This document shows, in pieces, positions 1,802-56,035 of a DNA stretch of 64,000 bases; the first letter of the stretch is position 1, and each line of letters begins with the position of its first letter. A program made the translations under genes and the position numbers. The notes beneath the pieces were generated by a model. That model was not told the DNA's origin, did not search any database, and saw nothing but the letters and a program-made list of their open reading frames with translations. The DNA comes from a virus: the IMG/VR virus record IMGVR_UViG_3300005825_000016; one strand, written 5' to 3'.

Positions 1802-4800
1802 ATGGCAACAACAGCGGAAGAGGTGCAGCGTGCAATAGAGCGAGCACGAGCAGCGCAAGACAATGATGCTGTCAGCACGCTCGAAGGGTATCTCAAAACA
1901 TTACAGCCATCGCAACCAGCACAACCTGCTGGCGCGTTGCCCGGTAACGATGATCCTATTGGTCAGGGAGTCAGTGGCCCTGCTCTTACAAAGCCGCAGC
2001 GAGAGCGACGTATAAGTCAGCTCAGCTATGAGCATGACCAATCATTGCTTGGGTTGCCAGAGAATCATCCGCAGCGCCCCACTAAGGATGAGATCAACCA
2101 GTTTCGCAGTAAGCACGTAACGTCACAGACGCCAGATGGCCGTCCTGTTGGCGTGCGTGATATTTCCAAAGATGTTGTGCGTGATCCGAATACCGGAGAA
2201 GTTCGTTGGGCAGCGCTTTCTCCCGATCAGATAGATAGCGCTGAAGCAAAAAAGAAGGCTCGTGAAGATACGAAGAGAGCCACAGGTGGTGCATTGAAGT
2301 TTGGCACTATCAATCCAATTGGCGAATTCATTGACGCGAAAGACAAGGCCATTGAGTCTCGCAACATCACTCAGCAGATCATCTGGGAGCAGATGCCATC
2401 TGGTGAGAAGAGCCGCATCATTAATCGTGTTCGAGAAGAGCATGGCGACAAGGCTGCAATTCGCTTTGAAACTGATGCTGGTTTATTCCCATCCAATGAA
2501 TTCAAGAAGCTCATGGATGAGAACCCGGACAACAACAAGCTGCTTGACACCATGGAAGGTGATGAGTGGTGGGAAGAGCGTAAAGAAACAGTATCGAGAG
2601 TACTATCGAAGATCGGTAGCGCATGGAACTTTGGTGCCCCGATTCCTGCATTCGGAGCAGATACACCAACGGGTGCACTGACTGGTAAGGGTAAGTTCGA
2701 AGGCATTGACTACGCAGGTAAGGATGCACCTTTGTATGCCGGTGCGTCAGAGGATATTCGTGAGTGGCGAAGCGAAGCGAAGAGTGGTGGTATCGGTCTG
2801 TATGAAAACGTACTGAAGCCGTTACTTACAAGCAAGGAAGGGCTGACACCGGGTGAGCGTGTAATCAAAGCCGCTCAGACGATCAAGGAAGAGGCGTACA
2901 CAGCTGAACAGTTGAAGTCTTCTCAGAAGCCGTTTATTCCAGAAGGTAAAACGGTTACGGATATGTTTTCGTCCGACTTCTGGACAGACCCAAATACCAA
3001 GATGCCATGGAATGACTGGACTGGGTTCTACCTGACATTCATGGAGAACGCACCACAAATCGCAGCGAGCGTTGGCGTAACGCGAGTTGCTGGTGGTATT
3101 GGCGCTCGACATGCAGCTGCTGCGAATACAGGCCGTAGGCTACAGGACATTGAGGCTGCTCGGAAAAAATACGCTGGGCTTTATGGTGTTGCTGGTGGTG
3201 GATCGACCGAAGGTTTTCTGATTCACAATAATGTTGCACGTGAAGTTGGTCAGTCATTAGCCGAAGTTCCCATGGAGATATGGCGCGAAGATCAGACCTT
3301 CAATGATCTTGTTGCTGCTGGACTCAATGAGGAAGAAGCTAAGCAGCTACTAACTCAGGATGCAGCGAGCGCAGCTGGCACTACGGCGTTTGCTGTTGCT
3401 GGTTTGGCTGGTGGCGCTCCTATGGGTTACATGATAGGTCAATCAGGAGCAGGTCGTCTTGCGAGTAAAGCCACGGCTGGTCGCGTTGCAACGGCAGCTC
3501 TCGGTGAGCCACTTCAGGAAGGTACGCAGGAAGTTATCGAAGGTGAGATCAGCGACATAGCGATTGCTGGTATTGACCCAGACAATCCGATCTTCTCCCA
3601 AGAGAACCGCAGGCTGGAGCGATTTGCTGGTGGTGCGTTTGTTACCGGACCAACTGGTATTGGCGCACTCGCAACTATTGAGTACGGTAAGCCAGCTGGA
3701 TATCAGAAGGCAGATGTCGAAGCTGCCACGGCTGCAAAGACCATGATGGATGCCGTGAACGAACGGTACAAGCTGGAATTAAAACTCAGCGATCCAGAGT
3801 ATCGTACAAACACCGAGCCTATGGTCAGGCTCAAGAACATGCAAAAGCTGGAAAATCTGCAACGCACAGAAGCAGAGACCGTTCTTAAATCAGCGAAAGT
3901 CCTCAAGGGTTATCTTGCAGATAATCCATCGCAGACATCTAAGGTAGAAGCAAAGCGGCTTGCCACCATGGAGATGCAGGCGAACGCTACGTTGACTGAT
4001 ATTGCCGTTGCGCGATCACGCAGGCAGACGGTCTCTGAGATGGCAGAAGAGCAAGAGAACATCTTGATGGAACGAGCGATGATTCAGCAGCGCGTTGCTG
4101 ATGATCTCATCTCTCTTGAAGATATCAATCGACAGGTCGCAAACATCGAAGCTGTTCAAAACAACGAAGCCGTAAGTGAGGAAGCATATGAAGAGCTGGT
4201 AAAGGAAGGCTATGGTCGCTGGACGAATCAGGCGCAGGAAAAGTTTGTCATCAAGCCGAAGGGTAAGCGAGCACTGAATCTGCTGAACCAGCAAAGCCGT
4301 CATCTTTCAACAAGGATCAAGCAGGGCTACACAGGAACTGATCGACGTAATCCACTGAACCAGATGAAGCGTGATCTGGTGGATTCGGCTGGTCCGGTCG
4401 AACGTGAGCAGATGCTTTATACGGACAACCTCACTGGCGCTCAGAACCGTAGGGCATTTAAGGAGCGCAGCGCAGATGCCAAGGCAGTTGCTGCTGTAGA
4501 CGTAGATTCACTGGCATGGGTGAATGATCATATGACCCATGCGGCTGGCGACAGGCTGCTGGTGACCGTAGCAGACGCCATAGGCTCTCAGAACGGTGTA
4601 GAGGTGTTCCGGCTCGGTGGAGATGAGTTCGCGGTAACTGGAGCATCTCAGGAAGCCTTGGAGACAGCTTTACAAGCAGCAGCCAAGGTACTTCAGAGTT
4701 CCCCTATTGCTGACGCTGAACAAGAGGTTCGTCCTACCATTACATGGGGCAAGGGTGAAACTTACGAGGCTGCTGACAAAGAGGCCGGTAGCAGAAAAGC

Positions 4801-7800
4801 TGAGCGCATCCAGAGGGGTCAGGTGGCGTCTCGTAAGGATAAGCCAGCGTCATGGTCTGCTCGTGCGCAGCTTGGGCTGTTTCATTGGACTGGAGAAAAT
4901 GCTAACCAGAAGTTCTTTGTGCAACATGCCATACAAAACGGTTTACAGGTTGGAAGTGAAGCATCGTTCTCAATAAAGCAAAAGGTCAGGCGGGATGGGT
5001 CAGCGTTAGCGAATCAATCAACGATAACCATTACTGGTCGTGTTGCTGAAGTCTTTAAGAAAGAAAACGAGATTGCTATCCAGACAGCTAACGGTAGCAA
5101 ATTGTATTTTACTAGCCGTGGATGGCTGAAGAGAACTGGCAAACACAAGTTGTCAGCTACAGAAGAGCCTAGCCTTGCATATCAAGTCGAGCGCTCTTTG
5201 CAGCCAGTTGGTACTCGCCCACAGAAGAAAGCATTCAACGAATGGCTGGCGAACAATCCCGGAAAACCTATTAAGGAATACACCGGACCAAGAGTAAAGT
5301 TTGGTGGCATCAGTAATGTAGGGGATGCATCAGTAAGGATTTCATCATTTACTGACGTAGGTGAAAACAAGGGTCTATTCCAGCTCGACAAAGGTGCGGT
5401 ATTTCCACATAAGTGGTCACAGGTTTCGCATCTCGTGAAGCGTGGATCAAGTGTTGAGGTTTTGACACCTGATGGTGCAGAGTGGGGCATTGTTACTAAG
5501 GTTAAGAATGCCGGACGTGACGGCAAACGACCAAGAGTAACAGTAAACATTGATGGTCGTGTTTTCACTTTTAACCCAGACAGAAATCATCTCATTACGC
5601 ATGGAATTGATACAGCTGATTTTGTTTGGATTACTGGTTGGGAAGAATACAGCGATCCATTGTATGGCGCTTTGCCGCAAATAGTTCCTGATGTGCAGAT
5701 TGGTCATGTTGTTAATGAAGGAGAGATTATTGCCGATCTCTACAAAGAGAGCGCTGTTCAGAAGCAGCAACAGCTTGCGTGGTGGACTAATGACTACCCG
5801 GAGTGGCACCCGACAGTACCGTATGTTCCACCACTATCAAAGGTTAGTGAAGACGTTCGGCTTGAAGCGGAAGCGCTGAAAGATTATTTGACTCGTGGGT
5901 ACAGCAATCTGCCGGAAATCAACATGATCTACGATCTGGCCGAGACACCTGAAACGGTGAGAGCGCAGATCATTGCCGAGGGTGCGTCTATTCACGGTGT
6001 CCACGGATACATGAACCACATTAATCCGAAGGATGGCATCTATATATTTGTCCCGAACATTTATCGTGGAAGTAAAAACAATCTTGAGAGCGGCATCACT
6101 GAGACATTGCTGCACGAGATGATCGGCCACTATGGAGTACGTGGATTCTTCGGTAATGAAGCGAAACTTCGGGAGATGATGAACGAGCTGGTTGATGCGT
6201 TCCCGAAAGTTGCCGATGCTCGCGCCCGTCACCTAAAGTTAAATAAAGCAATCCCGAATCATAAGCAGCTTCTTGGTGAAGAGATGATTGCTTATTTGGT
6301 TGGTGAACACGCCAGCGGCAAGGTCAGTCTGAACAAAAAGCAGAAAGGCGTGATCGAAAAAATCATCAGCTGGATACGTCAGCTGCTGGTCAGGATGCGC
6401 TTCATTAAGGGTAATGAAGTTGACTTCTGGAATGACGCGAGAGTAAGAAGGCTGGTTTCTCGCTCTTACGATTTCGTTCGCAATGGCAAGGGGTTCGAGT
6501 GGACCGCGCTCACTGGTGAGGTTATTAGGTTCGATACACCGCTTCAGATGCGTGACGGAGATATATTCCAGCAAGGCGTTGTTACGGCGATTACGACAGC
6601 TACCGAAAAAATCACAACGAAACAGCAAAAGCAAAAGCACGCGAAGCAGTATGGTGGTGTTGAGAACGTGCCACAAGAAGTACCAATGTTTCCAGAGAGC
6701 GCCAGCCCAAATATCTATCGGTTATCATTGCAAACAGCGGTTAAGGCTGGATACATCTCCAAGATGGAAATGAAGTACTCTGGTCTTGACGAGAGTGGCA
6801 GCGACTATGCGCTTCTTCGTGACGCGAAGTACAATGATATCAAATCTTTAATGTTGGCAACGGAAGAAATAAATCCTCGTGATTGGTATAAAAATGTACT
6901 TCCATTTGGATTGGCAAAAGAAGTTGATGCGCTTTACGAGACGATGGATAACAGCACTATGGTTGGTCCACTTATCCCGGAAGCGAGAGCAGAGGTTTAT
7001 CGCGGTGTTATTGATCAAGAGGCATATAACAATGCGACAAATCGTATCCAAGAAATCATGGATATGCCAATTGATCAGAAGAATGCCACGATCAGCAAGA
7101 AGATTTTACTTGCTCACGCTGCAAGCAATAAAGCACTGCGTATCAACGTTATACGTCAGGGTGGACATCCTAATTTGGAATACTCAACGGTTGCTCAAAT
7201 CTTATTTGGACCTGATGTTGATTTCGATAGCCTAACGGATTTTCAGACGGAGATGATTGATGCTGAAAAACGACGCATCAAAGATCGTGGTCCGTTCATC
7301 GGCTATAACGAAGAGCAGGATCGGTGGTTGGATTGGGCAAATTCAAGACATCAATATCGCGAGTATATTCCGCAGGGAGCAAAAGCCACTAATGACTATC
7401 GTGTTGCCTTAGTGCTACAGGAAGGCTCTCACGAAATGGGGTCAGTACCATCTGCTCACTGGGGTGTTCCGCACTTAATGCACATCAGAACTGCTGTGGC
7501 AGATATTGCTTCAATAGAAGGCGCTCCCGTACTCCCACCAGCACGAAATCCAGAAATGGAAGGCAAAGCGCTTTCTATGATTGAATTGCAAGCCAACTGG
7601 TTACAGGAGCTTCGGTACGCATATACGACTCCTTCGATGAGGGAAGACAGTGCAAGGCAATATGATTTCGACAAAAAAACCACAGTATCTTTGTCGATGG
7701 GGTTTGTAACTAGACTCAGTGAAGGCTTATGGGATTCTGTTGATAAGATGCTAAAGCCTATCTACAACGCGCCAACAGGTGCCTTAAAGCAAGAGTATCT

Positions 7801-10800
7801 GGAGTTTATTGAATCAAGGTATGGTCAGCCACTGGAAGAAATGTCCGAGGCTACAAAAAGAGAGGCATACACAAGATTCAATGACCACAAGCTAACGCCG
7901 ATTATAAATAAGATTTCCGAAGCGAAGGAGATCGCAAAATCTTTTGGAGCTGTTCGTCAAACATTCATGAACGACCTTCCCGGTCTTATGGATGCTCGTG
8001 TGTTTGATAGGCTCGACACCTATGCGGTATCTGAGGTAACAGAGCGAATTAGTGACGATTTGACTAATTTGATTAGTGGACTTCACCGTATGATCGAGGC
8101 ACCAACTCATCAAGAGTTGGTGGCAACTGTGGGTGAAATAAAATCAAGAGTTACTCGTAACCTTCATCGCCTTTCCGGCAGTTCAACAATTTCACGGTTG
8201 GCTTTTGCGAAACCAAAGATCGTTGAGATGGTTGGAGCAGTACTCGAAAAACTTGAGTTTAATGACATTCTTGACGTGGCTATGGAGCCACTTGATGCAG
8301 TTGAGCGAGTTGCAATTCGCATTCCGGTAGAGGCAATTAATGAGTATCGAGATGCCTCTAAAACACGACAAGATCCTTCGCAAATTATCATGCTAAATAT
8401 CCTATCGAACAGCAGGCTTCTTGATGCTGGTATAAACCCCAATGGGATGCACCTTCAGTTCGATCAAGAAACTGATCCAAATTACTTTGAGATCACAGCA
8501 GCTGGCACAAAAGAGCATTTAACAGTATTAAGCGAGAAGCTACCGAATCTAATAAGAACCTATGTTAGCTCAACTGGTCCGGTAAGTTTTGAAAACTGGC
8601 TTAGCAGTACAGCAACTAGTAACGCACGAGAACGTAATTCTAGCGAAGTTACGTGGGATGAAGTTAAAGAAGAATTTGGATTTACCGAGGTAAACCTCGA
8701 TGATCCTAGTCATGATGAACTTAGTCTTTTGCGAGAACATAGTGTTCAAACGTATGAGCAGTTCGAGACCTATGAGTTCGATGACATTATGGTTGATACC
8801 GTGAACTCAGCTTTCGAAAACATGGACTGGAGTGAAGTTTATAACGACGATGGTGAAGGCTTATGGCCCGGATCAACAGACTTCACGGAGCGAGTGGAAT
8901 TTGATGATGATGGTGATGCTGATACAGATAATGCAAGACAGTGGCTTAGTGATGCTCGCGAATCGTATCGAAGCAATGAGATGTTTGATGATGATTCCTT
9001 GCGTGACAGCGCATATGATGAAATCCGTGAACGTTGGGACTCATCACCGGCAGCTTTAATTCTTGGTGTTATACCAGTGGAGTGGGATGAGGACGGAGAA
9101 GTAACCGACTCCGTTGCGTTTCGCATCGCAGCTCAAAACTATGATGATTATTACGATGTCTTCATTAATGATGAAGAGGTTGCTAGTGAGGTAAATCTCA
9201 ATGATGCGCAGCAAAAAGCTATTAATGAGATTAGAGATTACTACAACGATAGAGGAATAATTCTTCCTCATGAGAGTCTTTTTAGCCCTACTGAAGACAT
9301 CGTTCCAGATAATTCTAATACTGATCTTGACACTGATCGGGTACAACCAGATTGGTTAAGTATTGCGAATCGAATTATTGATTCATCTGGTGTGATCTCT
9401 CTGCCACCGGAAAGTGGCGATAAGATATTTGAGCGTATGGTTTCTTACGAGAAAGCAAAAGAAGCCAGAAGGCAAAAGGGTATTGAGGAAAGAGTAATAA
9501 CAGATACTCCGCTGAAAGACGATAGCGTCTGGAGACCCATTGCTTTGAAGTACTTGCTTTCTGATGCTGTTCGCAGAGGGTTTCCTGCAATCATTTGGAA
9601 CAATGGACTGGCAAGCTCAAAGCGTGGTGGTAACTGGGGTGTTGAAGTTGCTCGACCAGTAAATCGTATTGTTTGGACGCAGGAGACAATGACTCTTCGT
9701 GGAGAGACCCACGATATGATCGTCATTCGCACTCCAGACTTGCCAAGCCCTATTGTGGTTGATGCGAGAAGGATGATTCCTATTCTCGGTCGAGATTTAT
9801 CGACACATATCATCGGTCAAATAAACGGGAAGATTCCTCTGCAACCAGAGGTTCAGGCGAGAGGGGAAATTATTGAAGGAGAAGCAGCAGAGGTTTCATT
9901 GCGAGATCATTTTCTTCTCTCAACGTCGCCAAGTGGCATTACTTCACTGCATCGTCGCAGCGATGGTGGATTCGTAGGTCTTGCTCGTGGAGAAGATGAA
10001 GTCCAAGCTCTTATGGAATCGCATATGGAATCGCATAGACCCTATCTGACTCGTCCAGCTGGATGGACAGAGGTTGAACCTGACCTGTTAGCTGACATTA
10101 ATCCTCTTGGTAGCGAAATTAAGATGACAGGTATCGTTACCGAGCAAAGTCTTGGCACAAAGATGCGCATCATCGCTGGAGGCCGAGAGCGCGATTACCA
10201 TCATACCTACGCCCAAGCAAAACAAGCATCAGCTCGCGAGTCTTATGAAGGAGTGATGCACCGAATATGGGAAAAAGAGCTGAAGAAGTACGGTGCAACC
10301 ATTCAAGAGGCTTGGGTAAAAGGAAACATTGATGATGCATGGAATAAAGAAGGTCAACCTATTAAAAAGATAGACACGCGATCTGAGCGTATAGCGGTAA
10401 CGCATGGAAAGGTTTCCATTGAAGAACTGAGAGGTGAGACTCACGGCTATATTGCTATGAGCGAAAGAAGTGGTTTACTCACTGAGCGCATTTTTGAAAG
10501 CTATGCTCGTGCATCTGAGTGGATGGAAGAGTGGAAAGATAATAATTTTGGGGAAGAAGGTGGCGTAATTAAAGTGTATTACGTCGCGATTAATGACAAG
10601 ATCGTTGAAGAATTCTCTGGTCCTGTTGCTCCGTTTCATTATGATCCAACACAAGACCCTGTACTTAAGGAAGCCGCTGAGAAAATTGGTTATGAAGATG
10701 TTTCATTCCGTGACAGATACAACAAGTGGCGTGAAGCATGGCGGGATAAATTCAATCAAGGAATGTTTGATCGCTTCCACGGTATTAAACGAGCACTTTC

Positions 10801-13426
10801 TTACGCTCATGAAACCAACAAGGGTTACATTCAAACTCGCCTTACTACGTCTCTTGATTCAGTGATGAAGTCAGTTATGGAATACGGCCCACCAGTGTGG
10901 TCTGGTGGAATCGTTCAGTCTGACGCAAAGATTGGCGGCTTTCTCGATATTCTCCAGCCAGTTATGGCGCAAATCGACCTGTGGGGCATGTACATGGCTG
11001 GAGTCAGGGCCAAGCGGTTACTTGCAGAGGGTCGAGAAAAACTTTTTAGCGAAGAACAGATCGACGCCATGGTTGCTCTTGGCGACAAGTATCCACAGTT
11101 TGCACGTGTTGCAGCGAAGTATGCGGAATTCAACAAGAAGATTCTTGACTTTGCTGAAGAGGCTGGCGTTATCAACCCGGATACCAGATCACTGTGGGAA
11201 AACGCCGACTATGTACCATTCTATCGCGTCGAGGATGAGAGGCTGGTAGGACCATTTTCTGGTGGGGCTGGTGTTGCGAACCAGCGGTCTCCGATCAAGC
11301 GACTGAAGGGTGGTGACGCTAATATCGGCAACGTCATTCACAACATCATGGTGAATATGACGAAGCTGGTTGATACGTCGATGAAAAACCAAGCCGCCCT
11401 TACCACGGTGGATGCACTACGTGGGTCTGGCATCGTGTCGAAGCAACCTATGACATTCTCGCAGCAGGTCATTCCACTGAATCAGGTGAAGAAGCTGCTA
11501 ATAGATCGCGGCATGAATCCAGAAACCATTCCGGTCGCGGCGCTTGAAGGTTTCCAGAAAATGTTCGCGGTGCAGCCGCCGGAAGGTCCGGGCGTGATCT
11601 CAATTCTGCGTGATGGCAAGAAGGAGTTCTATTACACGGATGATGATCTGCTGTACCGGGCGATGACCAACATTAATAAGAAGCACTGGGGTTCATGGAT
11701 GAATTTATTCCGTGCACCGAAGCGACTGTTGACGACAATGATCACGTTGGACCCCGGCTTCATGGCTGCGAACTATGTGCGTGACTCTTTGTCAGCTTTC
11801 GTTCTATCTCGCGATCATTTCATTCCTGTCGCATCAGGCATCAAGGGGTTTGGTCAGGCACTGGTTAAAGATAAGGCTATGCGTACCATGTTGTCTGCTG
11901 GTGCCGCATTCGAAAGCGGATACATCAATCAGTATGATCCGAAGTCAACTGATCGTGTGATCAAAGATGCTATGAAGAAAAAGACTTTCTCTCGCACGGT
12001 TCTGAATACGCCGAAGAAATTGTTCCAAGCATGGAAAGCGATTGGTTCAGCAACAGAGAACGCGAACCGTATGGCTGTATATAACGCAGCGATAGCGGCA
12101 GGTAAATCCGAGATGCAAGCTGTGTTCGAGGCCAAGGACTTAATGGACTTTTCCATGGGTGGAGATTGGCCTGCTGTCCAGTTCCTTATTCAGACTGTGC
12201 CGTTCATGGGCGCTCGTATGCAGGGTCTGCACCGACTTGGACGTGGGTTTGCTGAAAACCCAGCAGCCTTTCTGTTGAAGGGCACCATGGTTGGCATGGC
12301 TGGCATGGCGTTGTTTCTCACCTTCCGTGATGACGAGCGCTACAAAGAACTCGAAGAGTGGGACAAGGATACATACTTCCACTGGTGGATTGGCGACAAC
12401 CATTACCGTCTGCCGAAGCCGTTTGAGGTTGGTGCGATATTCAACACGATCCCTGAGCGGATCATGGAGTACGCAGCATCGAACGAGAAGGACGCACCGA
12501 AGCTGTTCTGGTCTCGCATGGGCCACATGTTCGGAGAGACGTTCAATATGAACCCTGTGCCGCAGACTCTTCGCCCGATGACGGAATCGTATTTCAACTA
12601 CAACTTCTTCGCAGGTCGATCTATCGTCAGCCCATACGAGGCTGATCGAATGGCACCTGAGCAGTACCGTTACTCAACCAGTCCAACCATGGTTGAACTT
12701 GGTCGCGCTCTACCTGCTGAGCTTGATGTTGCGAGCAGTAAAATCAGATCGCCGCTGCATCTTGCGAACCTCTTCTACGGCTATACAGGCACGCTCGGTA
12801 AGTATTTCCTGCTGGCATCGGATGCCGTGGTCAGGGATCAAATGGACTATCCGAATCCACCGGAGTTACGTAAGAGCGATTGGCCTGTGGTGAGTCGGTT
12901 CTTCCGTGGCAGTGAGCCGCGTCGCACCAAGTATGAAGAAGAGACCTATCGCCTGATCAAAAAGGTCAGCGAGATTCAAGGCTCTCTTCGCTTCCTTGAG
13001 AAGACAGAGCAAGAGGCTCGTTTCGAAGATATTCAGACTGAATGGGAGCCGTATATTCGAGTAGCGAAAGACCTTGAAGATGTTCGCGAAGATGTTAGTG
13101 ACATCAATGCTGCGATCATGAATATCTGGATGGACCCGGAAATGGACCCGAAGCAGAAGCGCATCGAAGTTGATTCGCTGCAAAAAGATAAGAACATGCT
13201 ATTTGAGCTTGGCTATGAATTGCGTCCGGGTGGTCCATTGAACACTGACGGTGAGCCTGTCACTCAGCAGATGATTAAAGAGCTGATTGATAACTTCGGT
13301 GTTGATGACCTGAGTGCAAAAGCGCTTGAGGGTAAAGCACCAGAAACGTTTGATTTGATCAGTGGAATAAACACACTTGGAACACGAGAGCTGCAACGTC
13401 TTGCTGAATACAGGGAGCAACAGTGA
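1802..13426 (+). CDS. giant polyvalent internal virion protein: GGDEF domain, zincin-like metallopeptidase, acidic tract, C-terminal LPD38
   Basis: 3874 aa. TDNLTGAQNRR...DVDSLAWVND...AAGDRLL...RLGGDEF (aa ~873-1005); LLHEMIGHYG...GEEMIAY (aa ~1438); RLPKPFEVG...NPVPQTLRP (aa ~3536, LPD38-type). Confidence 0.85.
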   Translation: MATTAEEVQRAIERARAAQDNDAVSTLEGYLKTLQPSQPAQPAGALPGNDDPIGQGVSGPALTKPQRERRISQLSYEHDQSLLGLPENHPQRPTKDEINQFRSKHVTSQTPDGRPVGVRDISKDVVRDPNTGEVRWAALSPDQIDSAEAKKKAREDTKRATGGALKFGTINPIGEFIDAKDKAIESRNITQQIIWEQMPSGEKSRIINRVREEHGDKAAIRFETDAGLFPSNEFKKLMDENPDNNKLLDTMEGDEWWEERKETVSRVLSKIGSAWNFGAPIPAFGADTPTGALTGKGKFEGIDYAGKDAPLYAGASEDIREWRSEAKSGGIGLYENVLKPLLTSKEGLTPGERVIKAAQTIKEEAYTAEQLKSSQKPFIPEGKTVTDMFSSDFWTDPNTKMPWNDWTGFYLTFMENAPQIAASVGVTRVAGGIGARHAAAANTGRRLQDIEAARKKYAGLYGVAGGGSTEGFLIHNNVAREVGQSLAEVPMEIWREDQTFNDLVAAGLNEEEAKQLLTQDAASAAGTTAFAVAGLAGGAPMGYMIGQSGAGRLASKATAGRVATAALGEPLQEGTQEVIEGEISDIAIAGIDPDNPIFSQENRRLERFAGGAFVTGPTGIGALATIEYGKPAGYQKADVEAATAAKTMMDAVNERYKLELKLSDPEYRTNTEPMVRLKNMQKLENLQRTEAETVLKSAKVLKGYLADNPSQTSKVEAKRLATMEMQANATLTDIAVARSRRQTVSEMAEEQENILMERAMIQQRVADDLISLEDINRQVANIEAVQNNEAVSEEAYEELVKEGYGRWTNQAQEKFVIKPKGKRALNLLNQQSRHLSTRIKQGYTGTDRRNPLNQMKRDLVDSAGPVEREQMLYTDNLTGAQNRRAFKERSADAKAVAAVDVDSLAWVNDHMTHAAGDRLLVTVADAIGSQNGVEVFRLGGDEFAVTGASQEALETALQAAAKVLQSSPIADAEQEVRPTITWGKGETYEAADKEAGSRKAERIQRGQVASRKDKPASWSARAQLGLFHWTGENANQKFFVQHAIQNGLQVGSEASFSIKQKVRRDGSALANQSTITITGRVAEVFKKENEIAIQTANGSKLYFTSRGWLKRTGKHKLSATEEPSLAYQVERSLQPVGTRPQKKAFNEWLANNPGKPIKEYTGPRVKFGGISNVGDASVRISSFTDVGENKGLFQLDKGAVFPHKWSQVSHLVKRGSSVEVLTPDGAEWGIVTKVKNAGRDGKRPRVTVNIDGRVFTFNPDRNHLITHGIDTADFVWITGWEEYSDPLYGALPQIVPDVQIGHVVNEGEIIADLYKESAVQKQQQLAWWTNDYPEWHPTVPYVPPLSKVSEDVRLEAEALKDYLTRGYSNLPEINMIYDLAETPETVRAQIIAEGASIHGVHGYMNHINPKDGIYIFVPNIYRGSKNNLESGITETLLHEMIGHYGVRGFFGNEAKLREMMNELVDAFPKVADARARHLKLNKAIPNHKQLLGEEMIAYLVGEHASGKVSLNKKQKGVIEKIISWIRQLLVRMRFIKGNEVDFWNDARVRRLVSRSYDFVRNGKGFEWTALTGEVIRFDTPLQMRDGDIFQQGVVTAITTATEKITTKQQKQKHAKQYGGVENVPQEVPMFPESASPNIYRLSLQTAVKAGYISKMEMKYSGLDESGSDYALLRDAKYNDIKSLMLATEEINPRDWYKNVLPFGLAKEVDALYETMDNSTMVGPLIPEARAEVYRGVIDQEAYNNATNRIQEIMDMPIDQKNATISKKILLAHAASNKALRINVIRQGGHPNLEYSTVAQILFGPDVDFDSLTDFQTEMIDAEKRRIKDRGPFIGYNEEQDRWLDWANSRHQYREYIPQGAKATNDYRVALVLQEGSHEMGSVPSAHWGVPHLMHIRTAVADIASIEGAPVLPPARNPEMEGKALSMIELQANWLQELRYAYTTPSMREDSARQYDFDKKTTVSLSMGFVTRLSEGLWDSVDKMLKPIYNAPTGALKQEYLEFIESRYGQPLEEMSEATKREAYTRFNDHKLTPIINKISEAKEIAKSFGAVRQTFMNDLPGLMDARVFDRLDTYAVSEVTERISDDLTNLISGLHRMIEAPTHQELVATVGEIKSRVTRNLHRLSGSSTISRLAFAKPKIVEMVGAVLEKLEFNDILDVAMEPLDAVERVAIRIPVEAINEYRDASKTRQDPSQIIMLNILSNSRLLDAGINPNGMHLQFDQETDPNYFEITAAGTKEHLTVLSEKLPNLIRTYVSSTGPVSFENWLSSTATSNARERNSSEVTWDEVKEEFGFTEVNLDDPSHDELSLLREHSVQTYEQFETYEFDDIMVDTVNSAFENMDWSEVYNDDGEGLWPGSTDFTERVEFDDDGDADTDNARQWLSDARESYRSNEMFDDDSLRDSAYDEIRERWDSSPAALILGVIPVEWDEDGEVTDSVAFRIAAQNYDDYYDVFINDEEVASEVNLNDAQQKAINEIRDYYNDRGIILPHESLFSPTEDIVPDNSNTDLDTDRVQPDWLSIANRIIDSSGVISLPPESGDKIFERMVSYEKAKEARRQKGIEERVITDTPLKDDSVWRPIALKYLLSDAVRRGFPAIIWNNGLASSKRGGNWGVEVARPVNRIVWTQETMTLRGETHDMIVIRTPDLPSPIVVDARRMIPILGRDLSTHIIGQINGKIPLQPEVQARGEIIEGEAAEVSLRDHFLLSTSPSGITSLHRRSDGGFVGLARGEDEVQALMESHMESHRPYLTRPAGWTEVEPDLLADINPLGSEIKMTGIVTEQSLGTKMRIIAGGRERDYHHTYAQAKQASARESYEGVMHRIWEKELKKYGATIQEAWVKGNIDDAWNKEGQPIKKIDTRSERIAVTHGKVSIEELRGETHGYIAMSERSGLLTERIFESYARASEWMEEWKDNNFGEEGGVIKVYYVAINDKIVEEFSGPVAPFHYDPTQDPVLKEAAEKIGYEDVSFRDRYNKWREAWRDKFNQGMFDRFHGIKRALSYAHETNKGYIQTRLTTSLDSVMKSVMEYGPPVWSGGIVQSDAKIGGFLDILQPVMAQIDLWGMYMAGVRAKRLLAEGREKLFSEEQIDAMVALGDKYPQFARVAAKYAEFNKKILDFAEEAGVINPDTRSLWENADYVPFYRVEDERLVGPFSGGAGVANQRSPIKRLKGGDANIGNVIHNIMVNMTKLVDTSMKNQAALTTVDALRGSGIVSKQPMTFSQQVIPLNQVKKLLIDRGMNPETIPVAALEGFQKMFAVQPPEGPGVISILRDGKKEFYYTDDDLLYRAMTNINKKHWGSWMNLFRAPKRLLTTMITLDPGFMAANYVRDSLSAFVLSRDHFIPVASGIKGFGQALVKDKAMRTMLSAGAAFESGYINQYDPKSTDRVIKDAMKKKTFSRTVLNTPKKLFQAWKAIGSATENANRMAVYNAAIAAGKSEMQAVFEAKDLMDFSMGGDWPAVQFLIQTVPFMGARMQGLHRLGRGFAENPAAFLLKGTMVGMAGMALFLTFRDDERYKELEEWDKDTYFHWWIGDNHYRLPKPFEVGAIFNTIPERIMEYAASNEKDAPKLFWSRMGHMFGETFNMNPVPQTLRPMTESYFNYNFFAGRSIVSPYEADRMAPEQYRYSTSPTMVELGRALPAELDVASSKIRSPLHLANLFYGYTGTLGKYFLLASDAVVRDQMDYPNPPELRKSDWPVVSRFFRGSEPRRTKYEEETYRLIKKVSEIQGSLRFLEKTEQEARFEDIQTEWEPYIRVAKDLEDVREDVSDINAAIMNIWMDPEMDPKQKRIEVDSLQKDKNMLFELGYELRPGGPLNTDGEPVTQQMIKELIDNFGVDDLSAKALEGKAPETFDLISGINTLGTRELQRLAEYREQQ

Positions 13427-16847: not shown

Positions 16848-16886
16848 ATCATATCACACTCAGTGTGAAAAAGATAGCACTAAGTG
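16848..16886 (-). promoter_or_regulatory. extended -10 promoter with two CACTNAGTG operators
   Basis: TGn-TATGAT on the minus strand (16848-16853); operators at 16857-16865 and 16878-16886, 21 bp apart. Confidence 0.6.
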
Positions 16887-20174: not shown

Positions 20175-20211
20175 AGCTTACCACTATGTGTGAAAATGTC
20201 AACACTTAGTG
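20175..20211 (-). promoter_or_regulatory. sigma70 promoter with operator
   Basis: TTGACA-16 nt-TAAGCT with TGn; CACTTAGTG at 20203-20211 abutting the -35; degenerate copy 21 bp away. Confidence 0.75.
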
Positions 20212-20216
20212 TGCAC

Positions 20217-20244
20217 AAAAAAGGGCACCCGAAGGCACCCTTTT
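20217..20244 (-). terminator. Rho-independent terminator of the Y RNA-rsr transcript
   Basis: GGGUGCC-UUCG-GGUGCCC followed by U6, ~10 nt after the rsr stop. Confidence 0.85.
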
Positions 20245-20253
20245 CTGTAGACG

Positions 20254-21900
20254 TTATCTACTGAACTCCGCAATGATGGGGAGCACGTTTGCATCGAATC
20301 CAACCACGTCTAACATGCCGGAATCGTTGGGGTCAGCGATGCTGAACCCGCTGCTCGTCACACCAATAACCACGAGCTTAGCATTCGGGTTATGGGTCTG
20401 TCGGTATGACACTAATGCCTGAGCTGGCTTAATAGTGCCTGCCCACGTCTCGTTATCAGTGATGACGATGAACGTGTCTACCATGATGTTGTTGGCCGCA
20501 GCGTATAGCATCGGCACAGCACAGTCGGTAGAGCCGAAGTTACGGTCATACACTTTCTTCATCACGCTTTCCATCGAATCATTTGAGCCGATGTTGAGAT
20601 CAACAAATCCAGCGAGAGCGTTTTCCTGATCATGACGACCATATCCGTAGCCTCGTGGTCCTGCCGTGAAACCATGAATAAAATGAACTGGCTCAGTACG
20701 AGCGATGATCATTGCCATGGCACCAGCTGCCTCTGCTGCGCTGATATTCGAATTACTAATTGATGAACTCATCGAACCAGACACATCAACACCAATCATG
20801 AATGCCTTACCAGTCGGCTCCACATTCACGAATGCCTTCTCGAAACCCTTATCGAGTGCAGAGATTACACGCGGGTCAGTCTTCCAAGTCAGTGAGCTGC
20901 GATAGCCACCACCAGAGCTGTAATTCTTTAACGCCAAGAGATAGTGCATCGGGTGAATCTTTGAGCGCTTGATCTGCTCATCACTCACCAGTCGATCCAA
21001 TACCATCTTGGTCTCTACAGACATCGGCTTCAGCGTACCGTTCGCCGTCATCTTGCCCAGCTGTCGGATGGTTGCCATGAGTGGCATCTTCTTCAGCAGC
21101 TCGCGGTTGACAGCCTCGTTCTTCAGCCACTCAGTCGGCAGCATCTCCCATGACAGGCTGTACTGCTCAACATGCTTAGCCATGTCAGCGCCTTCGTTCC
21201 ACTCAAGCGTCTGTGCATCGCAGTAGCCCCTGTAGATGCGCGGCAGCTTGCCGGTCGCAACCTTTGCTTCCATCGTCTCAGGGCGGCAGGTCACATCGAA
21301 CATCGCACGCTTCTGCTCGACAATCGTTACCGGGTGAGATAGACGCATGATGTCGCGATGCGACCAACCATCACGCTGACGATACTTCAGCAGCTGATAG
21401 GCAAGATTGTCCGGCTTCTGGTTGTTATACCAGCGCTGGAAGGCACGCTTTGTAGCGCGGCCCCATCCACCAAATGCCTCAACGAACTTCGCAAACATGA
21501 ACAGGTGCGTACCCGTTCGTGCTACCTCTGGCATCACACCAGATGCCAGCTTGCGAGTCTGCTCATCGCCCAGCTTCAAAGCTGCGGCAAGAACAAACAA
21601 GGCAGCATCATTCTTGTGTGCGCGACCGTCCTGTGAAATCTCCACAACACGATTGACCACACGAAGACCATCAGACTTGATCAGTCCGATTACTGCGTTG
21701 GCATTGTCCTTGGTCAGGCTCGACTCGGTGACGTAGTAAGTGCCACCCTCGGAACCGAGAATAAGAAACCGATCCAGACGATCCCAGTCATCCAGCTTGT
21801 GAACGAATCCACCTGCTGAGTTCTTGACCTCATCGGTACGACCGGGGGTGCGCTCGCGCTGCGGTGAGACGCGAGTTGATACGTGACGTGAATAATCCAT
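20254..21900 (-). CDS. rsr: Ro60 RNA-binding protein (TROVE + vWA)
   Basis: VKNSAGGFV...LDRFLILGSEGGTYY...RTGTHLF...KYRQRDGWSHRD...GVDVSGSM...TDNETW...VVGFD; start at ATG 21900 with AGGAG 7 nt upstream. Confidence 0.97.
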   Translation of the reverse strand: MDYSRHVSTRVSPQRERTPGRTDEVKNSAGGFVHKLDDWDRLDRFLILGSEGGTYYVTESSLTKDNANAVIGLIKSDGLRVVNRVVEISQDGRAHKNDAALFVLAAALKLGDEQTRKLASGVMPEVARTGTHLFMFAKFVEAFGGWGRATKRAFQRWYNNQKPDNLAYQLLKYRQRDGWSHRDIMRLSHPVTIVEQKRAMFDVTCRPETMEAKVATGKLPRIYRGYCDAQTLEWNEGADMAKHVEQYSLSWEMLPTEWLKNEAVNRELLKKMPLMATIRQLGKMTANGTLKPMSVETKMVLDRLVSDEQIKRSKIHPMHYLLALKNYSSGGGYRSSLTWKTDPRVISALDKGFEKAFVNVEPTGKAFMIGVDVSGSMSSSISNSNISAAEAAGAMAMIIARTEPVHFIHGFTAGPRGYGYGRHDQENALAGFVDLNIGSNDSMESVMKKVYDRNFGSTDCAVPMLYAAANNIMVDTFIVITDNETWAGTIKPAQALVSYRQTHNPNAKLVVIGVTSSGFSIADPNDSGMLDVVGFDANVLPIIAEFSR

Positions 21901-21912
21901 CTTACTTCTCCT

Positions 21913-21937
21913 ATTCGGCTCGTCCATCACGAGCGTT
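21913..21937 (-). promoter_or_regulatory. circularly permuted Ro-binding hairpin adjacent to the rsr Shine-Dalgarno
   Basis: AAC-GCUCGU-GAUGG-ACGAGC-C-GAAU then AGGAG; same GAGC-C-G / (C/U)GCUC bulged helix as the three Y RNAs. Confidence 0.65.
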
Positions 21938-21943
21938 AAAAAA

Positions 21944-22075
21944 TGAGCATGTTATTGGCAGCGAAAGTTACGCGCTCTCCCAAGCTGAGCTACACCCACC
22001 ATTGTAGGGTGGGCGACTGGATTTGAACCAGTGACCTCGATCTCCCAAAGATGATAACGCTATCCATCCGGCTCA
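21944..22075 (-). ncRNA. yrlA: YrlA-type tRNA-like Y RNA
   Basis: Terminal Ro helix UGAGC-C-GGAU/ACAU-GCUCA; T arm ACUGG-UUCAAAU-CCAGU, loop-closed acceptor CGCCCACC/GGUGGGUG, D arm UA-GCUC-AGCUUGGGA-GAGC in permuted order; directly upstream of rsr. Confidence 0.9.
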
Positions 22076-22089
22076 AAATCAAAACTAAA

Positions 22090-22172
22090 TGCGAGCGTGT
22101 TGCGGAAGAGCGGTAGCCTTTCGGCATTTCACTGTTCAAGAGTAAGATAACGCTCTGATCCATCGGCTCGCA
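22090..22172 (-). ncRNA. Y RNA 2 (83 nt, non-tRNA module)
   Basis: UGCGAGC-C-GAU/ACAC-GCUCGCA Ro helix; AGAGCG/CGCUCU stem, UUAUC motif, GCC-GAAA-GGC hairpin. Confidence 0.8.
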
Positions 22173-22215
22173 AAACTGTCGAGACACCAATCCACTTAGT
22201 GCCTTAAAAATTTAG

Positions 22216-22280
22216 CCTGAGCATGTAAATTGCGGTGGGAACGATCATTAGAAGTGATAACCCATTGCATCCGGCTCAGG
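22216..22280 (-). ncRNA. Y RNA 1 (65 nt, minimal)
   Basis: CCUGAGC-C-GGAU/ACAU-GCUCAGG Ro helix; UGGG/CCCA stem then UUAUC; 5' end at the predicted TSS. Confidence 0.8.
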
Positions 22281-22287
22281 GATTGGC

Positions 22288-22331
22288 ATCATACGCCGGG
22301 GCTGGCTAAAGTCAACACTCAGTGGTAAAAT
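22288..22331. promoter_or_regulatory. divergent promoters sharing an operator (Y RNA-rsr leftward, HTH gene rightward)
   Basis: Minus strand TTGACT-16 nt-TATGAT (22315-22288); CACTCAGTG 22316-22324; plus strand TGn-TAAAAT 22326-22331. Confidence 0.7.
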
Positions 22332-22344
22332 TCTGCCCCTACCT

Positions 22345-22641
22345 GTGAAACCAAAAAGAAGCGAGAACGATGTGATGTCTACCCTTTTCGGCCCCAACGA
22401 GAGACCCGATGCAAACCCACCACACGAGAATGTAATCAGGAGGTTTCGAGAAGAGTTAAGGCTTGGGAGGCCGGAATTTGCTGATCTTCTTGATGTAAAA
22501 ATTGACACATTACGTGTATGGGAAACGGGGAAATCAAATCCACGCGGCCCTGTTGCGTTACGCATTGTTGAAACAGCGAATCGTAATAACTATCCACTGA
22601 CGGTCGAAGATATCTACCCGAAGAAGACGAAGAAAAAATAA
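22345..22641 (+). CDS. Cro/XRE-family HTH regulator
   Basis: RRFREELRLGRPEFADLLDVKIDTLRVWETGKSNP. Confidence 0.85.
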   Translation: MKPKRSENDVMSTLFGPNERPDANPPHENVIRRFREELRLGRPEFADLLDVKIDTLRVWETGKSNPRGPVALRIVETANRNNYPLTVEDIYPKKTKKK

Positions 22642-31129: not shown

Positions 31130-31200
31130 AATTTAGCACATACTGTGAAAAAGTCAACACTAAGTGTGAATATAGTAAACATACCACTGAGTGATAAAGT
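31130..31200. promoter_or_regulatory. divergent promoter region with two operators
   Basis: Minus strand TTGACT (31157-31152)-16 nt-TAAATT; CACTAAGTG 31158-31166 and CACTGAGTG 31185-31193; rightward -10-like TATAGT/TAAAGT. Confidence 0.65.
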
Positions 31201-34215: not shown

Positions 34216-34236
34216 TCTTTCACACTGAGTGAGAAG

Positions 34237-55306: not shown

Positions 55307-56035
55307 ATGACGACATCAGGTGATTATTTATTTAATCCTGATCTCGCTGAAATGGTCGATGAAGCGCTGGAGCGTTGTCGCATAGACCCTGCCTTGGTTA
55401 CAGTGAGGCACATTCTTGCGGCCAGACGCTCCATGCGTTTTATGCTTGCTGACTGGGCGACGAAGGAATACCACGATTTCCGTATCGAACGGCAGTCGTT
55501 CATGCTTGTGCAATCACAAGCGGAGTATATTGCGGGTACTGATTTCGACCTTGGTCTGACAGGAATTACTGTCATTGACATCATCGGTGCAGTGCTGAGA
55601 CGTAATGGTGTTGATACACCTGTTCAGCTGATGCCGCGCTCTGAGCTTTTGACTATTCCAGAGAAGACAACCGAGGGACGCCCTGACAGGATGTTCATCG
55701 ACAAGCAGCGTGATGGCATTACGCTGACCTTCTGGCCCGTACCAGAGAACTCAACTGATGAGCTGTTCTTCGACGCAGTGTTGAAGTTTCAGGACTCGAA
55801 TACTGCTGCCGATACCGCAGACATCCCTTGGTATATGTATGACGCTTTTGCCTACGGTCTAGCTTTCAGAATGGCAGAGAAGTTCGCTCCACCTGATCTT
55901 GAGGCGGCGCTGTATCAAAAAGCGGAGAATGCATTCAAGACTGGCAGCAACGCCGCACGTGAGCGCGGTGATGTCAGGTTCGTACCGACATCCAATTCGG
56001 CGCGGCGCAGAGGGAGATCGAGTAGTTACCGATGA
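55307..56035 (+). CDS. head-tail adaptor-like protein
   Basis: MTTSG..FN.D..E..EALERC...ARRSM..ML.DW; GRP...LTFWPVP; YGLAFRMA. Confidence 0.7.
   Translation: MTTSGDYLFNPDLAEMVDEALERCRIDPALVTVRHILAARRSMRFMLADWATKEYHDFRIERQSFMLVQSQAEYIAGTDFDLGLTGITVIDIIGAVLRRNGVDTPVQLMPRSELLTIPEKTTEGRPDRMFIDKQRDGITLTFWPVPENSTDELFFDAVLKFQDSNTAADTADIPWYMYDAFAYGLAFRMAEKFAPPDLEAALYQKAENAFKTGSNAARERGDVRFVPTSNSARRRGRSSSYR

What the first reader, a model, noticed from the sequence alone, without database searches (positions are those of the whole stretch)
20254..22315. Phage Ro60 operon with three tandem Y RNAs from one promoter
Seen, on the minus strand: promoter, then 65-nt, 83-nt and 132-nt RNAs, then rsr, then a terminator. 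Each RNA closes with the GAGC-C(bulge)-G / (C/U)GCUC helix and has a second stem followed by the same UUAUC motif. Established: bacterial Ro60 binds this bulged helix, YrlA mimics tRNA, Y RNA tethers Rsr to PNPase, and rsr often neighbours rtcB. Unusual here: three paralogous Y RNAs with different distal modules, no rtcB in the window, and placement in the early recombination block under the phage operator. Inference: a modular RNP in which one Ro60 is retargeted by swappable RNAs, for example as decoys or adaptors against tRNA-cleaving defences or host RNA decay.
Basis: partly seen in the sequence, partly recalled or inferred. Interest (0 to 1): 0.87.

Follow-up and report, generated by a model that had tools for sequence, protein, structure and literature searches.

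The report
Phage Ro60 operon with three Y RNAs
An uncultured ~70-kb estuarine phage carries a gene for the RNA-binding ring protein Ro60 preceded by three different small "Y RNAs" that share one docking stem; this is a real example of a known partnership, and only some details are new.

Summary
On the minus strand lie a sigma-70-type promoter, three structured RNAs (65, 83 and 132 nt), a conserved leader hairpin, rsr (Ro60, 548 aa) and an intrinsic terminator.

Covariance models built only from other loci find each RNA:
- RNA1: 62.5 bits, E 2e-16
- RNA2: 78.2 bits, E 1e-17
- RNA3: 110.4 bits, E 8e-26

All three folds show compensatory changes in homologues (95-100% of cells paired; slid controls at most 61%). 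RNA3 is a divergent YrlA-type tRNA mimic that scores below Rfam's cut-off.

The arrangement is not unusual. Every relative I fetched has 2-7 such units upstream of rsr, and this window has one of the smallest sets. Published work already describes two Y-like RNAs upstream of a phage Ro60 (Thermus phage phiLo) and co-transcribed YrlA/YrlB in mycobacteria. This scan has also noted phage Y RNA arrays on many other genomes.

The points that look new are:
- the docking module with its UUAUC motif, spaced as in the nematode stem-bulge (Y-type) RNA consensus;
- anticodon-loop-like hairpins right after UUAUC, with a different "anticodon" in each RNA;
- a circularly permuted Ro-site hairpin next to the rsr ribosome-binding site.

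Binding to Ro60, processing into separate RNAs and any anti-defence role remain inferred.

The parts
22316..22324 (.). 9-bp palindrome CACTGAGTG abutting the -35; candidate operator
   Evidence: CACTNAGTG occurs 8 times in the window against 1.4 expected. Three copies are directly followed by TTGAC. The same palindrome plus promoter is conserved in L046 and L004. That the divergent HTH protein binds it is inferred.
22288..22315 (-). Sigma-70-type promoter TTGACT-16-TATGAT
   Evidence: 10 of 12 consensus matches, and the only such site on the minus strand upstream of the RNAs. The closing stem of RNA1 begins 8 nt after the -10, as in L004 and L046.
22216..22280 (-). RNA1, 65-nt short stem-bulge Y-type RNA with apical hairpin AUCA-CUUCUAA-UGAU
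   Evidence: Model R1, built without window sequence, scores 62.5 bits, E 1.7e-16. The short-unit alignment is 97.5% paired with 13 of 18 pairs compensatory. There is a weak hit to the nematode sbRNA family RF01656 (23.1 bits, E 0.12).
22193..22201 (.). Second copy of the palindrome (CACTTAGTG) in the RNA1-RNA2 spacer, with no promoter hexamers
   Evidence: Its function is unknown. Relatives carry extra units or an internal promoter at this position.
22090..22172 (-). RNA2, 83-nt Y-type RNA with a three-way junction (hairpin UUACU-CUUGAAC-AGUGA and GCC-GAAA-GGC)
   Evidence: Model R3, built without window sequence, scores 78.2 bits, E 9.5e-18. The alignment A3 is 100% paired with 9 of 17 pairs compensatory.
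21944..22075 (-). RNA3, 132-nt YrlA-like tRNA mimic (T arm, closed 8-bp acceptor-like stem, D arm) on the same docking stem
   Evidence: Model R2, built without window sequence, scores 110.4 bits, E 7.6e-26. Rfam YrlA scores 29.8 bits, E 1e-3, below its gathering score of 69. Alignment A4 is 97.7% paired with 17 of 26 pairs compensatory, and all 8 acceptor-like pairs are compensatory.
21916..21934 (-). Leader hairpin GCUCG-UGAUGGA-CGAGC followed by C and G: the docking helix with its strands in reverse order, 3 nt before the SD
   Evidence: The 19 nt are identical in 10 loci, and L051 differs only by a loop one base shorter. L049 has GCCCGC/GCGGGC and L052 has GCUCACG/CGUGGGC, each still followed by CG. 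The hairpin is absent in L050 and L054.
21908..21912 (-). Shine-Dalgarno AGGAG
   Evidence: Read directly. It lies 8 nt before the ATG at 21900.
20254..21900 (-). rsr, Ro60 orthologue, 548 aa
   Evidence: PF05731 TROVE at 1.3e-35 and PF25045 vWA_Ro60 at 7.4e-58. It aligns full-length to Xenopus Ro60 1yvp (372 bits), human Ro60 (366) and D. radiodurans Rsr 2nvo (324).
20217..20240 (-). Intrinsic terminator: 7-bp stem, UUCG loop, U6
   Evidence: Read directly, and the same stem-loop is aligned (Atu_C8 block). The scan did not list it. The next promoter, with its palindrome, follows at 20211-20170.

Best explanation
This is a self-contained phage transcription unit for a Ro60 ribonucleoprotein system.

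One promoter, carrying a phage-specific palindrome, starts transcription a few bases before RNA1. The primary transcript carries three Y-type RNAs, a leader hairpin and the rsr mRNA, and it ends at an intrinsic terminator.

The RNAs are probably released by host endonucleases at the AU-rich spacers (UUUAGNUUU-like). Each then docks on Ro60 through the shared module: a GRRC/GYYC helix, a bulged C, a G-Y pair, a small internal loop, an upper stem, and UUAUC. The result is three RNPs that differ only in the distal module:
- RNA1: a short hairpin.
- RNA2: a three-way junction.
- RNA3: a tRNA-like body.

By analogy with D. radiodurans, Salmonella and Thermus phage phiLo, the distal modules recruit or sequester host factors, PNPase first among them and tRNA-binding enzymes for RNA3. 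This would redirect host RNA decay or defence during early infection.

The leader hairpin presents the same helix next to the ribosome-binding site and probably lets free Ro60 repress its own translation.

Shown here: gene identity, RNA structures, their conservation and the synteny. Inferred: processing, Ro60 binding, partners and biological role.
For: - Ro60 identity.
- Three RNAs found by models trained on other loci. R2 also finds RNA1 (32.2 bits) and RNA2 (33.3 bits) through the shared module alone.
- Covariation for all three folds.
- Same order in 20 or more related loci (HTH gene, gap with 2-7 units, rsr, YqaJ, RecT). R1 gives 59 hits at E<0.01 over 45 sources, the window included; in the loci where rsr was located they mostly cluster upstream of it on its strand (L017's lie downstream), while a few fall in motif-search loci where no rsr was found (L016, L018, L026, L027, L029).
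- A motif search with the RNA module alone recovered 8 loci with Ro60 genes only 38-46% identical.
- Leader hairpin conserved and co-varying.
- Estuary metatranscriptome contigs identical to the window cover rsr and the RNA1-RNA2 region (22074-22316), with none over the divergent HTH gene.
- Literature: Y RNAs sit upstream of rsr on the same strand, YrlA and YrlB are processed from one precursor, and each studied species has at least two Y RNAs (PMC4201824). phiLo Ro60 binds two upstream Yrl RNAs and forms a complex with host PNPase in vitro (PMC12135203). A Ro60-like phage protein counters the Ppl defence system (PMC11482910).
Against: - There is no direct evidence of processing, RNA ends or Ro60 binding. 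The RNA-library evidence consists of assembled contigs only. One contig runs 35 nt upstream of the predicted start, so DNA carry-over cannot be excluded.
- RNA3 fails Rfam's YrlA gathering score (29.8 against 69), and the protein fails NCBIfam's Rsr equivalog cut-off (452.8 against 900).
- The published bacterial motif GNCGAAN0-1G is matched only with one change.
- The host is unknown, so no partner (PNPase, tRNA enzymes, defence systems) can be checked.
- The leader hairpin is missing in two relatives.
Confidence: 0.75

Rival explanations
1. The three structures are not released as free RNAs. They stay as a long structured 5' leader of the rsr mRNA and act in cis, as multiple Ro60 binding sites for autoregulation or as stabilisers of the mRNA.
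For: There is a single promoter and no terminator between the RNAs and rsr. The leader hairpin shows that a Ro-type helix is used in cis next to the SD. In L050, L033 and L053 a complete unit abuts the SD. One RNA-library contig spans RNA1 to RNA2.
Against: In M. smegmatis, YrlA and YrlB in the same arrangement are cut from one precursor and bound by Rsr (PMC4201824). The spacers are conserved AU-rich single-stranded tracts. Some relatives give units their own internal promoter and terminator. A full tRNA-like body with a conserved T loop and D loop has no obvious role in a leader.
Confidence: 0.12
2. The RNAs work mainly as tRNA-part decoys (anticodon-arm, T-arm or whole-tRNA mimics) against host anticodon nucleases or tRNA-directed defences. 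In this reading Ro60 only stabilises or chaperones them.
For: Of 104 array units, 32 carry a 7-nt loop with the anticodon-loop signature Y32-U33-NNN-R37 directly after UUAUC, against 2.4 +/- 1.6 in shuffles. A further 12 carry a T-loop-like UUCGAAU. The loops differ between units and between orthologues while the stems co-vary. The window has CUUCUAA, CUUGAAC and UUUGGGA. A phage Ro60-like protein counters a defence system (PMC11482910).
Against: Counts include orthologous units, so they are not independent, although 20 distinct loops remain. U-turn loops are a common structural motif. In RNA3 the hairpin occupies the variable-arm position known from class-II-like YrlA RNAs (bioRxiv 10.1101/312249). 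No anticodon nuclease or host is known here.
Confidence: 0.1
3. The structures are chance similarities or decayed tRNA genes with no function.
For: ARAGORN and Rfam at gathering thresholds call nothing here.
Against: E-values of 1e-16 to 1e-25 from independent models. Compensatory changes in every helix. Conserved position in 20 or more loci.
Confidence: 0.02

Closest known systems
Thermus phage phiLo Ro60 with Yrl1 and Yrl2 (NAR 2025, PMC12135203)
   Same: A phage-encoded Ro60 with several Y-like RNAs directly upstream on the same strand. Each is a stem-bulge-stem RNA. Those RNAs bind the phage Ro60 and bridge to host PNPase in vitro.
   Different: There are three RNAs here, and up to seven in relatives. 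One is a full tRNA mimic. The docking motif is GAGCCGG...UUAUC rather than CGAA. The operon has its own operator-like promoter, a terminator and a leader hairpin. Nothing here has been tested biochemically.
Mycobacterium smegmatis YrlA/YrlB and mycobacteriophage YrlA (Chen et al. 2014, PMC4201824; Rfam RF02553)
   Same: Y RNAs lie upstream of rsr and are transcribed together. One is a tRNA mimic with a T arm, a D arm and a closed acceptor-like stem of 7-8 bp. The other is a shorter hairpin type.
   Different: RNA3 scores only 29.8 bits against a gathering score of 69. The Rfam consensus has no UUAUC at the junction. A third RNA type with a three-way junction is present.
Salmonella Typhimurium rsr-yrlBA-rtcBA operon
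   Same: Ro60 with two Y RNAs, and YrlA as a tRNA mimic complexed with PNPase.
   Different: There is no rtcB, rtcA or rtcR here or in complete relatives. The promoter is sigma-70-type rather than sigma-54-type.
Nematode stem-bulge RNAs and vertebrate Y RNAs (Rfam RF01656, RF00019; Kowalski and Krude 2015, PMC4726728)
   Same: A closing helix with a bulged C, an upper stem, and UUAUC 17 nt after the start of the GGUCCG-type motif. The offset is the same in the RF01656 consensus and in RNA1 and RNA3. Short units score 23-34 bits against RF01656, whose cut-off is 38. The phage Ro60 scores higher against Xenopus and human Ro60 than against D. radiodurans Rsr.
   Different: No unit reaches a gathering score, and RF00019 gives no hit at E<=10. 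The RNAs come from a bacterial-type promoter and a polycistronic transcript rather than from Pol III genes. Shared ancestry and shared constraint from a conserved Ro60 surface cannot be told apart here.

Membership tests
Ro60 / Rsr protein | TROVE (HEAT-repeat ring) domain followed by the Ro60-type vWA domain, over the full length | tested here: met
   PF05731 at 1.3e-35 and PF25045 at 7.4e-58. End-to-end alignment to 1yvp, 9nen and 2nvo.
Ro60 / Rsr protein | NCBIfam NF041674 Rsr equivalog cut-off (900 bits) | tested here: not met
   452.8 bits. It is a Ro60 orthologue outside the curated bacterial Rsr equivalog.
YrlA (Rfam RF02553) | Score at or above the gathering threshold of 69 bits | tested here: not met
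   29.8 bits, E 9.6e-4 for RNA3. Its orthologues score 27.9-40.5 bits, plus a partial match of 22.8 bits in L032.
YrlA (Rfam RF02553) | tRNA-like module: T arm with a UUCRAAU loop, closed acceptor-like stem, D arm with an AGCUCAG...GAGC signature | tested here: met
   T arm 100% paired. Acceptor-like stem with 8 of 8 pairs compensatory. D arm 96-100% paired.
YrlA (Rfam RF02553) | Encoded within 4 kb of rsr on the same strand (criterion of Chen et al. 2014) | tested here: met
   RNA3 ends 43 nt upstream of the rsr ATG.
YrlA (Rfam RF02553) | 5' motif GNCGAAN0-1G | tested here: inconclusive
   The window has GCCGGAUG (RNA1, RNA3) and GCCGAUGG (RNA2), each one change from the motif (motif from PMC4201824).
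Y RNA in the functional sense | Bound by Ro60 through the bulged helix and dependent on Ro60 for stability | not testable with these tools
   Only the conserved, co-varying helix with a bulged C is shown.
Metazoan Y RNA / nematode sbRNA (RF00019, RF01656) | Gathering score of the Rfam model | tested here: not met
   RF01656 scores 23.1 bits for RNA1 and 33.7 bits for a unit in L002, against a cut-off of 38. RF00019 gives no hit at E<=10.
Metazoan Y RNA / nematode sbRNA (RF00019, RF01656) | Bulged-C lower stem, upper stem, UUAUC opening the loop | tested here: met
   U, U, A and C of UUAUC are invariant in 13 short units, with UUAUC at offset 17-19.

The most novel reading that the evidence does not exclude
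The array may be a panel of tRNA-part mimics displayed on one Ro60 platform. Each Y RNA would present a different anticodon-arm-like hairpin: in this window the loops are UCU-, UGA- and UGG-type. RNA3 adds a whole tRNA body.

The phage would use the panel to decoy or capture host anticodon nucleases or other tRNA-directed factors. A permuted Ro site in the rsr leader would keep protein and RNA levels in balance.

The shared UUAUC module, spaced as in nematode stem-bulge (Y-type) RNAs, would then point to common descent of bacterial or phage Y RNAs and metazoan Y RNAs, with phages as carriers of the Ro60-Y RNA cassette.
Probability: 0.2. Interest if true: 0.8.

Novelty: new variant of a known kind. 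Interest (0 to 1): 0.5.

Why it matters
Ro60 and its Y RNAs are a conserved but poorly understood RNA-surveillance system, and Ro60 is a major human autoantigen. What they do in phages is almost unknown.

This locus belongs to a widespread family of ~70-kb uncultured phages. About 40 Ro60 clusters are at least 58% identical, many on contigs of 66-75 kb. In all of them the Y RNAs form small arrays with one constant docking module and interchangeable heads.

That gives a clean natural series for asking:
- what the heads recruit;
- whether the UUAUC element shared with animal Y RNAs is a Ro60 contact;
- whether Ro60 controls its own synthesis through an RNA mimic.

It does not change the known picture of Ro60 biology.

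Tried and rejected
- **Standard detectors find nothing here.** Rfam at gathering thresholds and ARAGORN called nothing in the region, so standard annotation misses all three RNAs.
- **Energy alone is weak evidence.** Single-sequence folding z-scores are -2.0, -2.05 and -0.5, and the MFE fold of RNA3 is wrong. The case rests on comparison with other loci.
- **No cultured relative.** The phage collection has no close relative at DNA level.
- **No whole genome.** None is held for the window, so 'no rtcB' rests on Pfam and PHROG scans of the larger ORFs and on two near-complete relatives.
- **The short-unit model underperforms on the long RNAs.** R1 scores RNA2 and RNA3 at only E 0.7 and 0.26 because of their large inserts. 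Type-specific models were needed.
- **One alignment artefact.** MAFFT misplaced UUAUC for two rows of the RNA3 alignment A4. I left the upper stem out of that count and tested it on A6, where it is 82% paired.
- **Expression is not settled.** RNA-library data are contigs only and cannot show ends, strand or processing. One contig reaches into the promoter, so I count this as presence, not proof of transcription.
- **Chance hits.** I treated the following as chance: a fourth match of the 5' module at 57424 (-), and weak R1 hits at 62485-62547 and 55951-56007.
- **Unavailable reviews.** Three review articles (PMC10870794, PMC6047535, PMC6542706) are not held, so my statement that longer arrays and the UUAUC module are unpublished rests on full-text searches only.
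Full report
**What is there**

Read on the minus strand, the region holds a complete transcription unit.
- A promoter, TTGACT-16-TATGAT, at 22315-22288. The palindrome CACTGAGTG abuts its -35.
- Three structured RNAs: RNA1 (22280-22216), RNA2 (22172-22090) and RNA3 (22075-21944).
- A short U-rich spacer.
- A hairpin at 21934-21916, directly before an AGGAG ribosome-binding site.
- A 548-aa ORF from the ATG at 21900 to the stop at 20254.
- A GC-rich hairpin with a UUCG loop and six U (20240-20217).

The ORF is a Ro60 orthologue. It carries the TROVE and Ro60-type vWA domains. It aligns end to end with Xenopus Ro60 (372 bits), human Ro60 (366) and D. radiodurans Rsr (324). It falls below NCBIfam's curated Rsr equivalog cut-off.

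**Genomic setting**

The window is most of a novel phage genome. It encodes small and large terminase subunits, a portal, a major head protein and a 3874-aa giant protein. No close relative exists among cultured phages.

The rsr unit lies between a divergent HTH gene followed by helicase and primase, and a separately promoted YqaJ exonuclease-RecT-SSB block. No RtcB was found in the window ORFs I scanned, nor in two related genomes rated 100% and 96% complete.

**Are the RNAs real?**

Standard tools say little. Rfam at gathering thresholds and ARAGORN report nothing here. Single-sequence folding is unimpressive. With relaxed thresholds, RNA3 matches YrlA at 29.8 bits (E 1e-3, cut-off 69). RNA1 matches the nematode stem-bulge RNA family RF01656 at 23.1 bits.

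The decisive evidence is comparative. A search with the Ro60 protein found relatives 60-79% identical in viral, metagenome and MAG contigs. The same locus order holds throughout: HTH gene, an unannotated gap, rsr, YqaJ, RecT. A DNA pattern taken only from the RNA module (GAGCCGGAUG-N6-GUUAUC) found 28 viral contigs, and 8 of them carry a Ro60 gene only 38-46% identical in the fetched stretch.

Every one of these gaps contains a head-to-tail series of 2-7 units of the same build. Three covariance models, each built without any window sequence, recover the window RNAs:

| Model | Trained on | Window RNA | Bits | E-value |
|---|---|---|---|---|
| R1 | short units | RNA1 | 62.5 | 1.7e-16 |
| R3 | RNA2-type units | RNA2 | 78.2 | 9.5e-18 |
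| R2 | tRNA-like units | RNA3 | 110.4 | 7.6e-26 |

R2 also picks up RNA2 (33.3 bits) and RNA1 (32.2 bits) through the shared module alone. Over 45 sources (the window and 44 loci), R1 gives 59 hits at E<0.01.

**Covariation**

- Short-unit alignment: 97.5% of cells paired, and 13 of 18 pairs show changes on both sides. Versions with the 3' partner slid by 1-3 columns reach at most 44%.
- RNA2-type alignment: 100% paired, 9 of 17 pairs compensatory.
- RNA3-type alignments: 97.7% and 95.3% paired. All eight pairs of the closed acceptor-like stem are compensatory, and the T arm is 100% paired.

One caveat applies. My unit parser required the four-base core of the closing helix to be complementary, so that core is selected by construction. 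The upper stems, the tRNA-like arms and the outer extension of the closing stem were not selected.

**Anatomy of the shared module**

All three RNAs open with GRRC, a bulged C, then a G that pairs with C or U on the 3' strand (…ACA-Y-GYYC). A small internal loop follows, then a 2-3-bp middle stem, a 4-6-bp upper stem, and an almost invariant UUAUC.

GRRC/GYYC itself co-varies between units: GAGC/GCUC, GGAC/GUCC, GGGC/GCCC and GAAC/GUUC.

UUAUC starts 17-19 nt after the first G of the motif. The consensus that Rfam prints for nematode stem-bulge RNAs has the same 17-nt offset. One unit in L002 reaches 33.7 bits against that family, whose cut-off is 38.

The literature describes UUAUC as conserved in vertebrate Y RNAs and nematode sbRNAs. 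It describes bacterial Y RNAs as divergent and not homologous to the vertebrate clades (PMC4726728). The two bacterial and phage Y RNA papers I could read do not contain the motif. The vertebrate Y_RNA model gave no hit, so I treat the resemblance as suggestive only.

**Distal modules**

- RNA1 ends in a 4-bp hairpin with the loop CUUCUAA.
- RNA2 has a three-way junction, with a 5-bp hairpin (loop CUUGAAC) and GCC-GAAA-GGC.
- RNA3 carries a T arm, an 8-bp acceptor-like stem closed by a loop, U-A, a D arm, and a small hairpin AUC-UUUGGGA-GAU at the position of a long variable arm.

Across 104 array units, 83 have a hairpin with a 7-nt loop right after UUAUC (shuffles: 37.5). Of these, 32 show the anticodon-loop signature pyrimidine-U-NNN-purine (shuffles: 2.4 +/- 1.6, maximum 7), with 20 different loops. 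A further 12 have a T-loop-like UUCGAAU.

Orthologous RNA2-type units keep C-U…A-A while the three middle bases and the stem change. Published work states that YrlA lacks an anticodon loop and that many YrlAs have long variable loops (bioRxiv 10.1101/312249). The anticodon-arm reading is therefore my hypothesis, not an established feature. The counts include related loci and are not independent events.

**Leader hairpin**

The 19 nt GCUCGUGAUGGACGAGCCG are identical in the window and nine relatives, and L051 differs only by a loop one base shorter, although flanking bases vary.

The hairpin is the docking helix with its strands in reverse order, closed by a loop, and it ends 3 nt before the SD. 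At greater distance it changes to GCCCGC/GCGGGC (L049) and GCUCACG/CGUGGGC (L052). In both cases it is still followed by C-G and matches the GGGC-type helices of the Y units in those loci.

It is absent in L054. In L050 it is replaced by a complete unit next to the SD. Autoregulation of rsr translation by free Ro60 is the simplest reading.

**Expression**

Estuary metatranscriptome assemblies hold pieces identical to the window over rsr, RNA3 and a 243-nt contig spanning RNA1-RNA2 (22074-22316). None of four runs covers the divergent HTH gene.

These are contigs, without ends or strand. One reaches 35 nt upstream of the predicted start. I therefore take this as presence in RNA libraries only.

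**How it most likely works, and comparison with what is known**

See the best explanation for the mechanism. The arrangement matches published systems:
- Y RNAs upstream of rsr on the same strand, YrlA and YrlB cut from one precursor, and at least two Y RNAs per studied species (PMC4201824).
- Thermus phage phiLo, whose Ro60 binds two upstream Yrl RNAs and joins host PNPase in vitro (PMC12135203).
- A Ro60-like phage protein that counters the Ppl defence system (PMC11482910).

Notes from this scan report phage Y RNA arrays of up to ten units on many other genomes. I did not test those.

Against that background, the window is a small, tidy member of a known kind. The points that look new relative to the papers I could search are the UUAUC-containing module shared with animal-type Y RNAs, the anticodon-loop-like heads, the permuted leader site, and the conservation of the whole unit in a widespread ~70-kb phage family.

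**Verdict**

The claim that the arrangement is unusual is not supported, and function remains inferred. Interest is moderate.

Noticed in passing
L002:3480-3680, L005:3400-3660, L046:3230-3520, L001:3760-3960, L004:3560-3700: Relatives carry an internal promoter (TTGACT-17-TACAAT) inside the array. It is followed by a unit whose docking helix is circularly permuted (…ACAUGCUCG-loop-CGAGCCG…UUAUC…). In L002, L005 and L046 the unit ends at its own intrinsic terminator (CCCCGG…CCGGGG-U6). This suggests a separately transcribed, permuted Y-type RNA. The window lacks it.
   Followed up: partly
window 16857-16886, 20203-20211, 22193-22201, 22316-22324, 31158-31193, 34223-34231: The palindrome CACTNAGTG occurs 8 times against 1.4 expected. 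Most copies sit at intergenic, promoter-like places, and three are fused to TTGAC. It is probably the operator or promoter element of a phage regulator, perhaps the HTH protein at 22345-22641 (+).
   Followed up: partly
window 1802-13426 (+): A 3874-aa ORF. Its C-terminal 540 aa match PHROG families of unknown function (phrog_18222, 6e-89), and it has a weak DarB-like antirestriction match near residues 373-844. It is likely a giant virion or ejected protein.
   Followed up: no
None of my three Y RNA models hits it at E<=1, so it is not a unit of this family.
   Followed up: partly
window 21944-22000 (-), RNA3 acceptor-like stem: The closed acceptor-like stem is 8 bp. A G paired to the discriminator-position C precedes the 7-bp stem, which resembles the G-1:C73 pair of tRNA-His (own knowledge). 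The loop CUACAAU is conserved in close relatives. M. smegmatis YrlA, with a 7-bp stem, is cut by RNase P (PMC4201824), so RNA3 may be cut as well.
   Followed up: no
L046 (MAG contig JAQYVZ010000060.1, 7.2 kb): A related rsr/Y RNA locus sits on a short contig binned into a Desulfuromonadales MAG. That MAG also has an RtcB on another contig (L047). Binning of a phage fragment is weak host evidence.
   Followed up: no
L022:2535-2608 (+): A bona fide tRNA (59.8 bits) lies just upstream of the Y RNA array of a distant relative, on the opposite strand.
   Followed up: no
L041:2293-2901 (+): A soil-type locus with Ro60 only 41% identical has three R1 hits upstream of rsr, although the simple UUAUC pattern misses them. 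The module family therefore extends beyond the motif I used.
   Followed up: no
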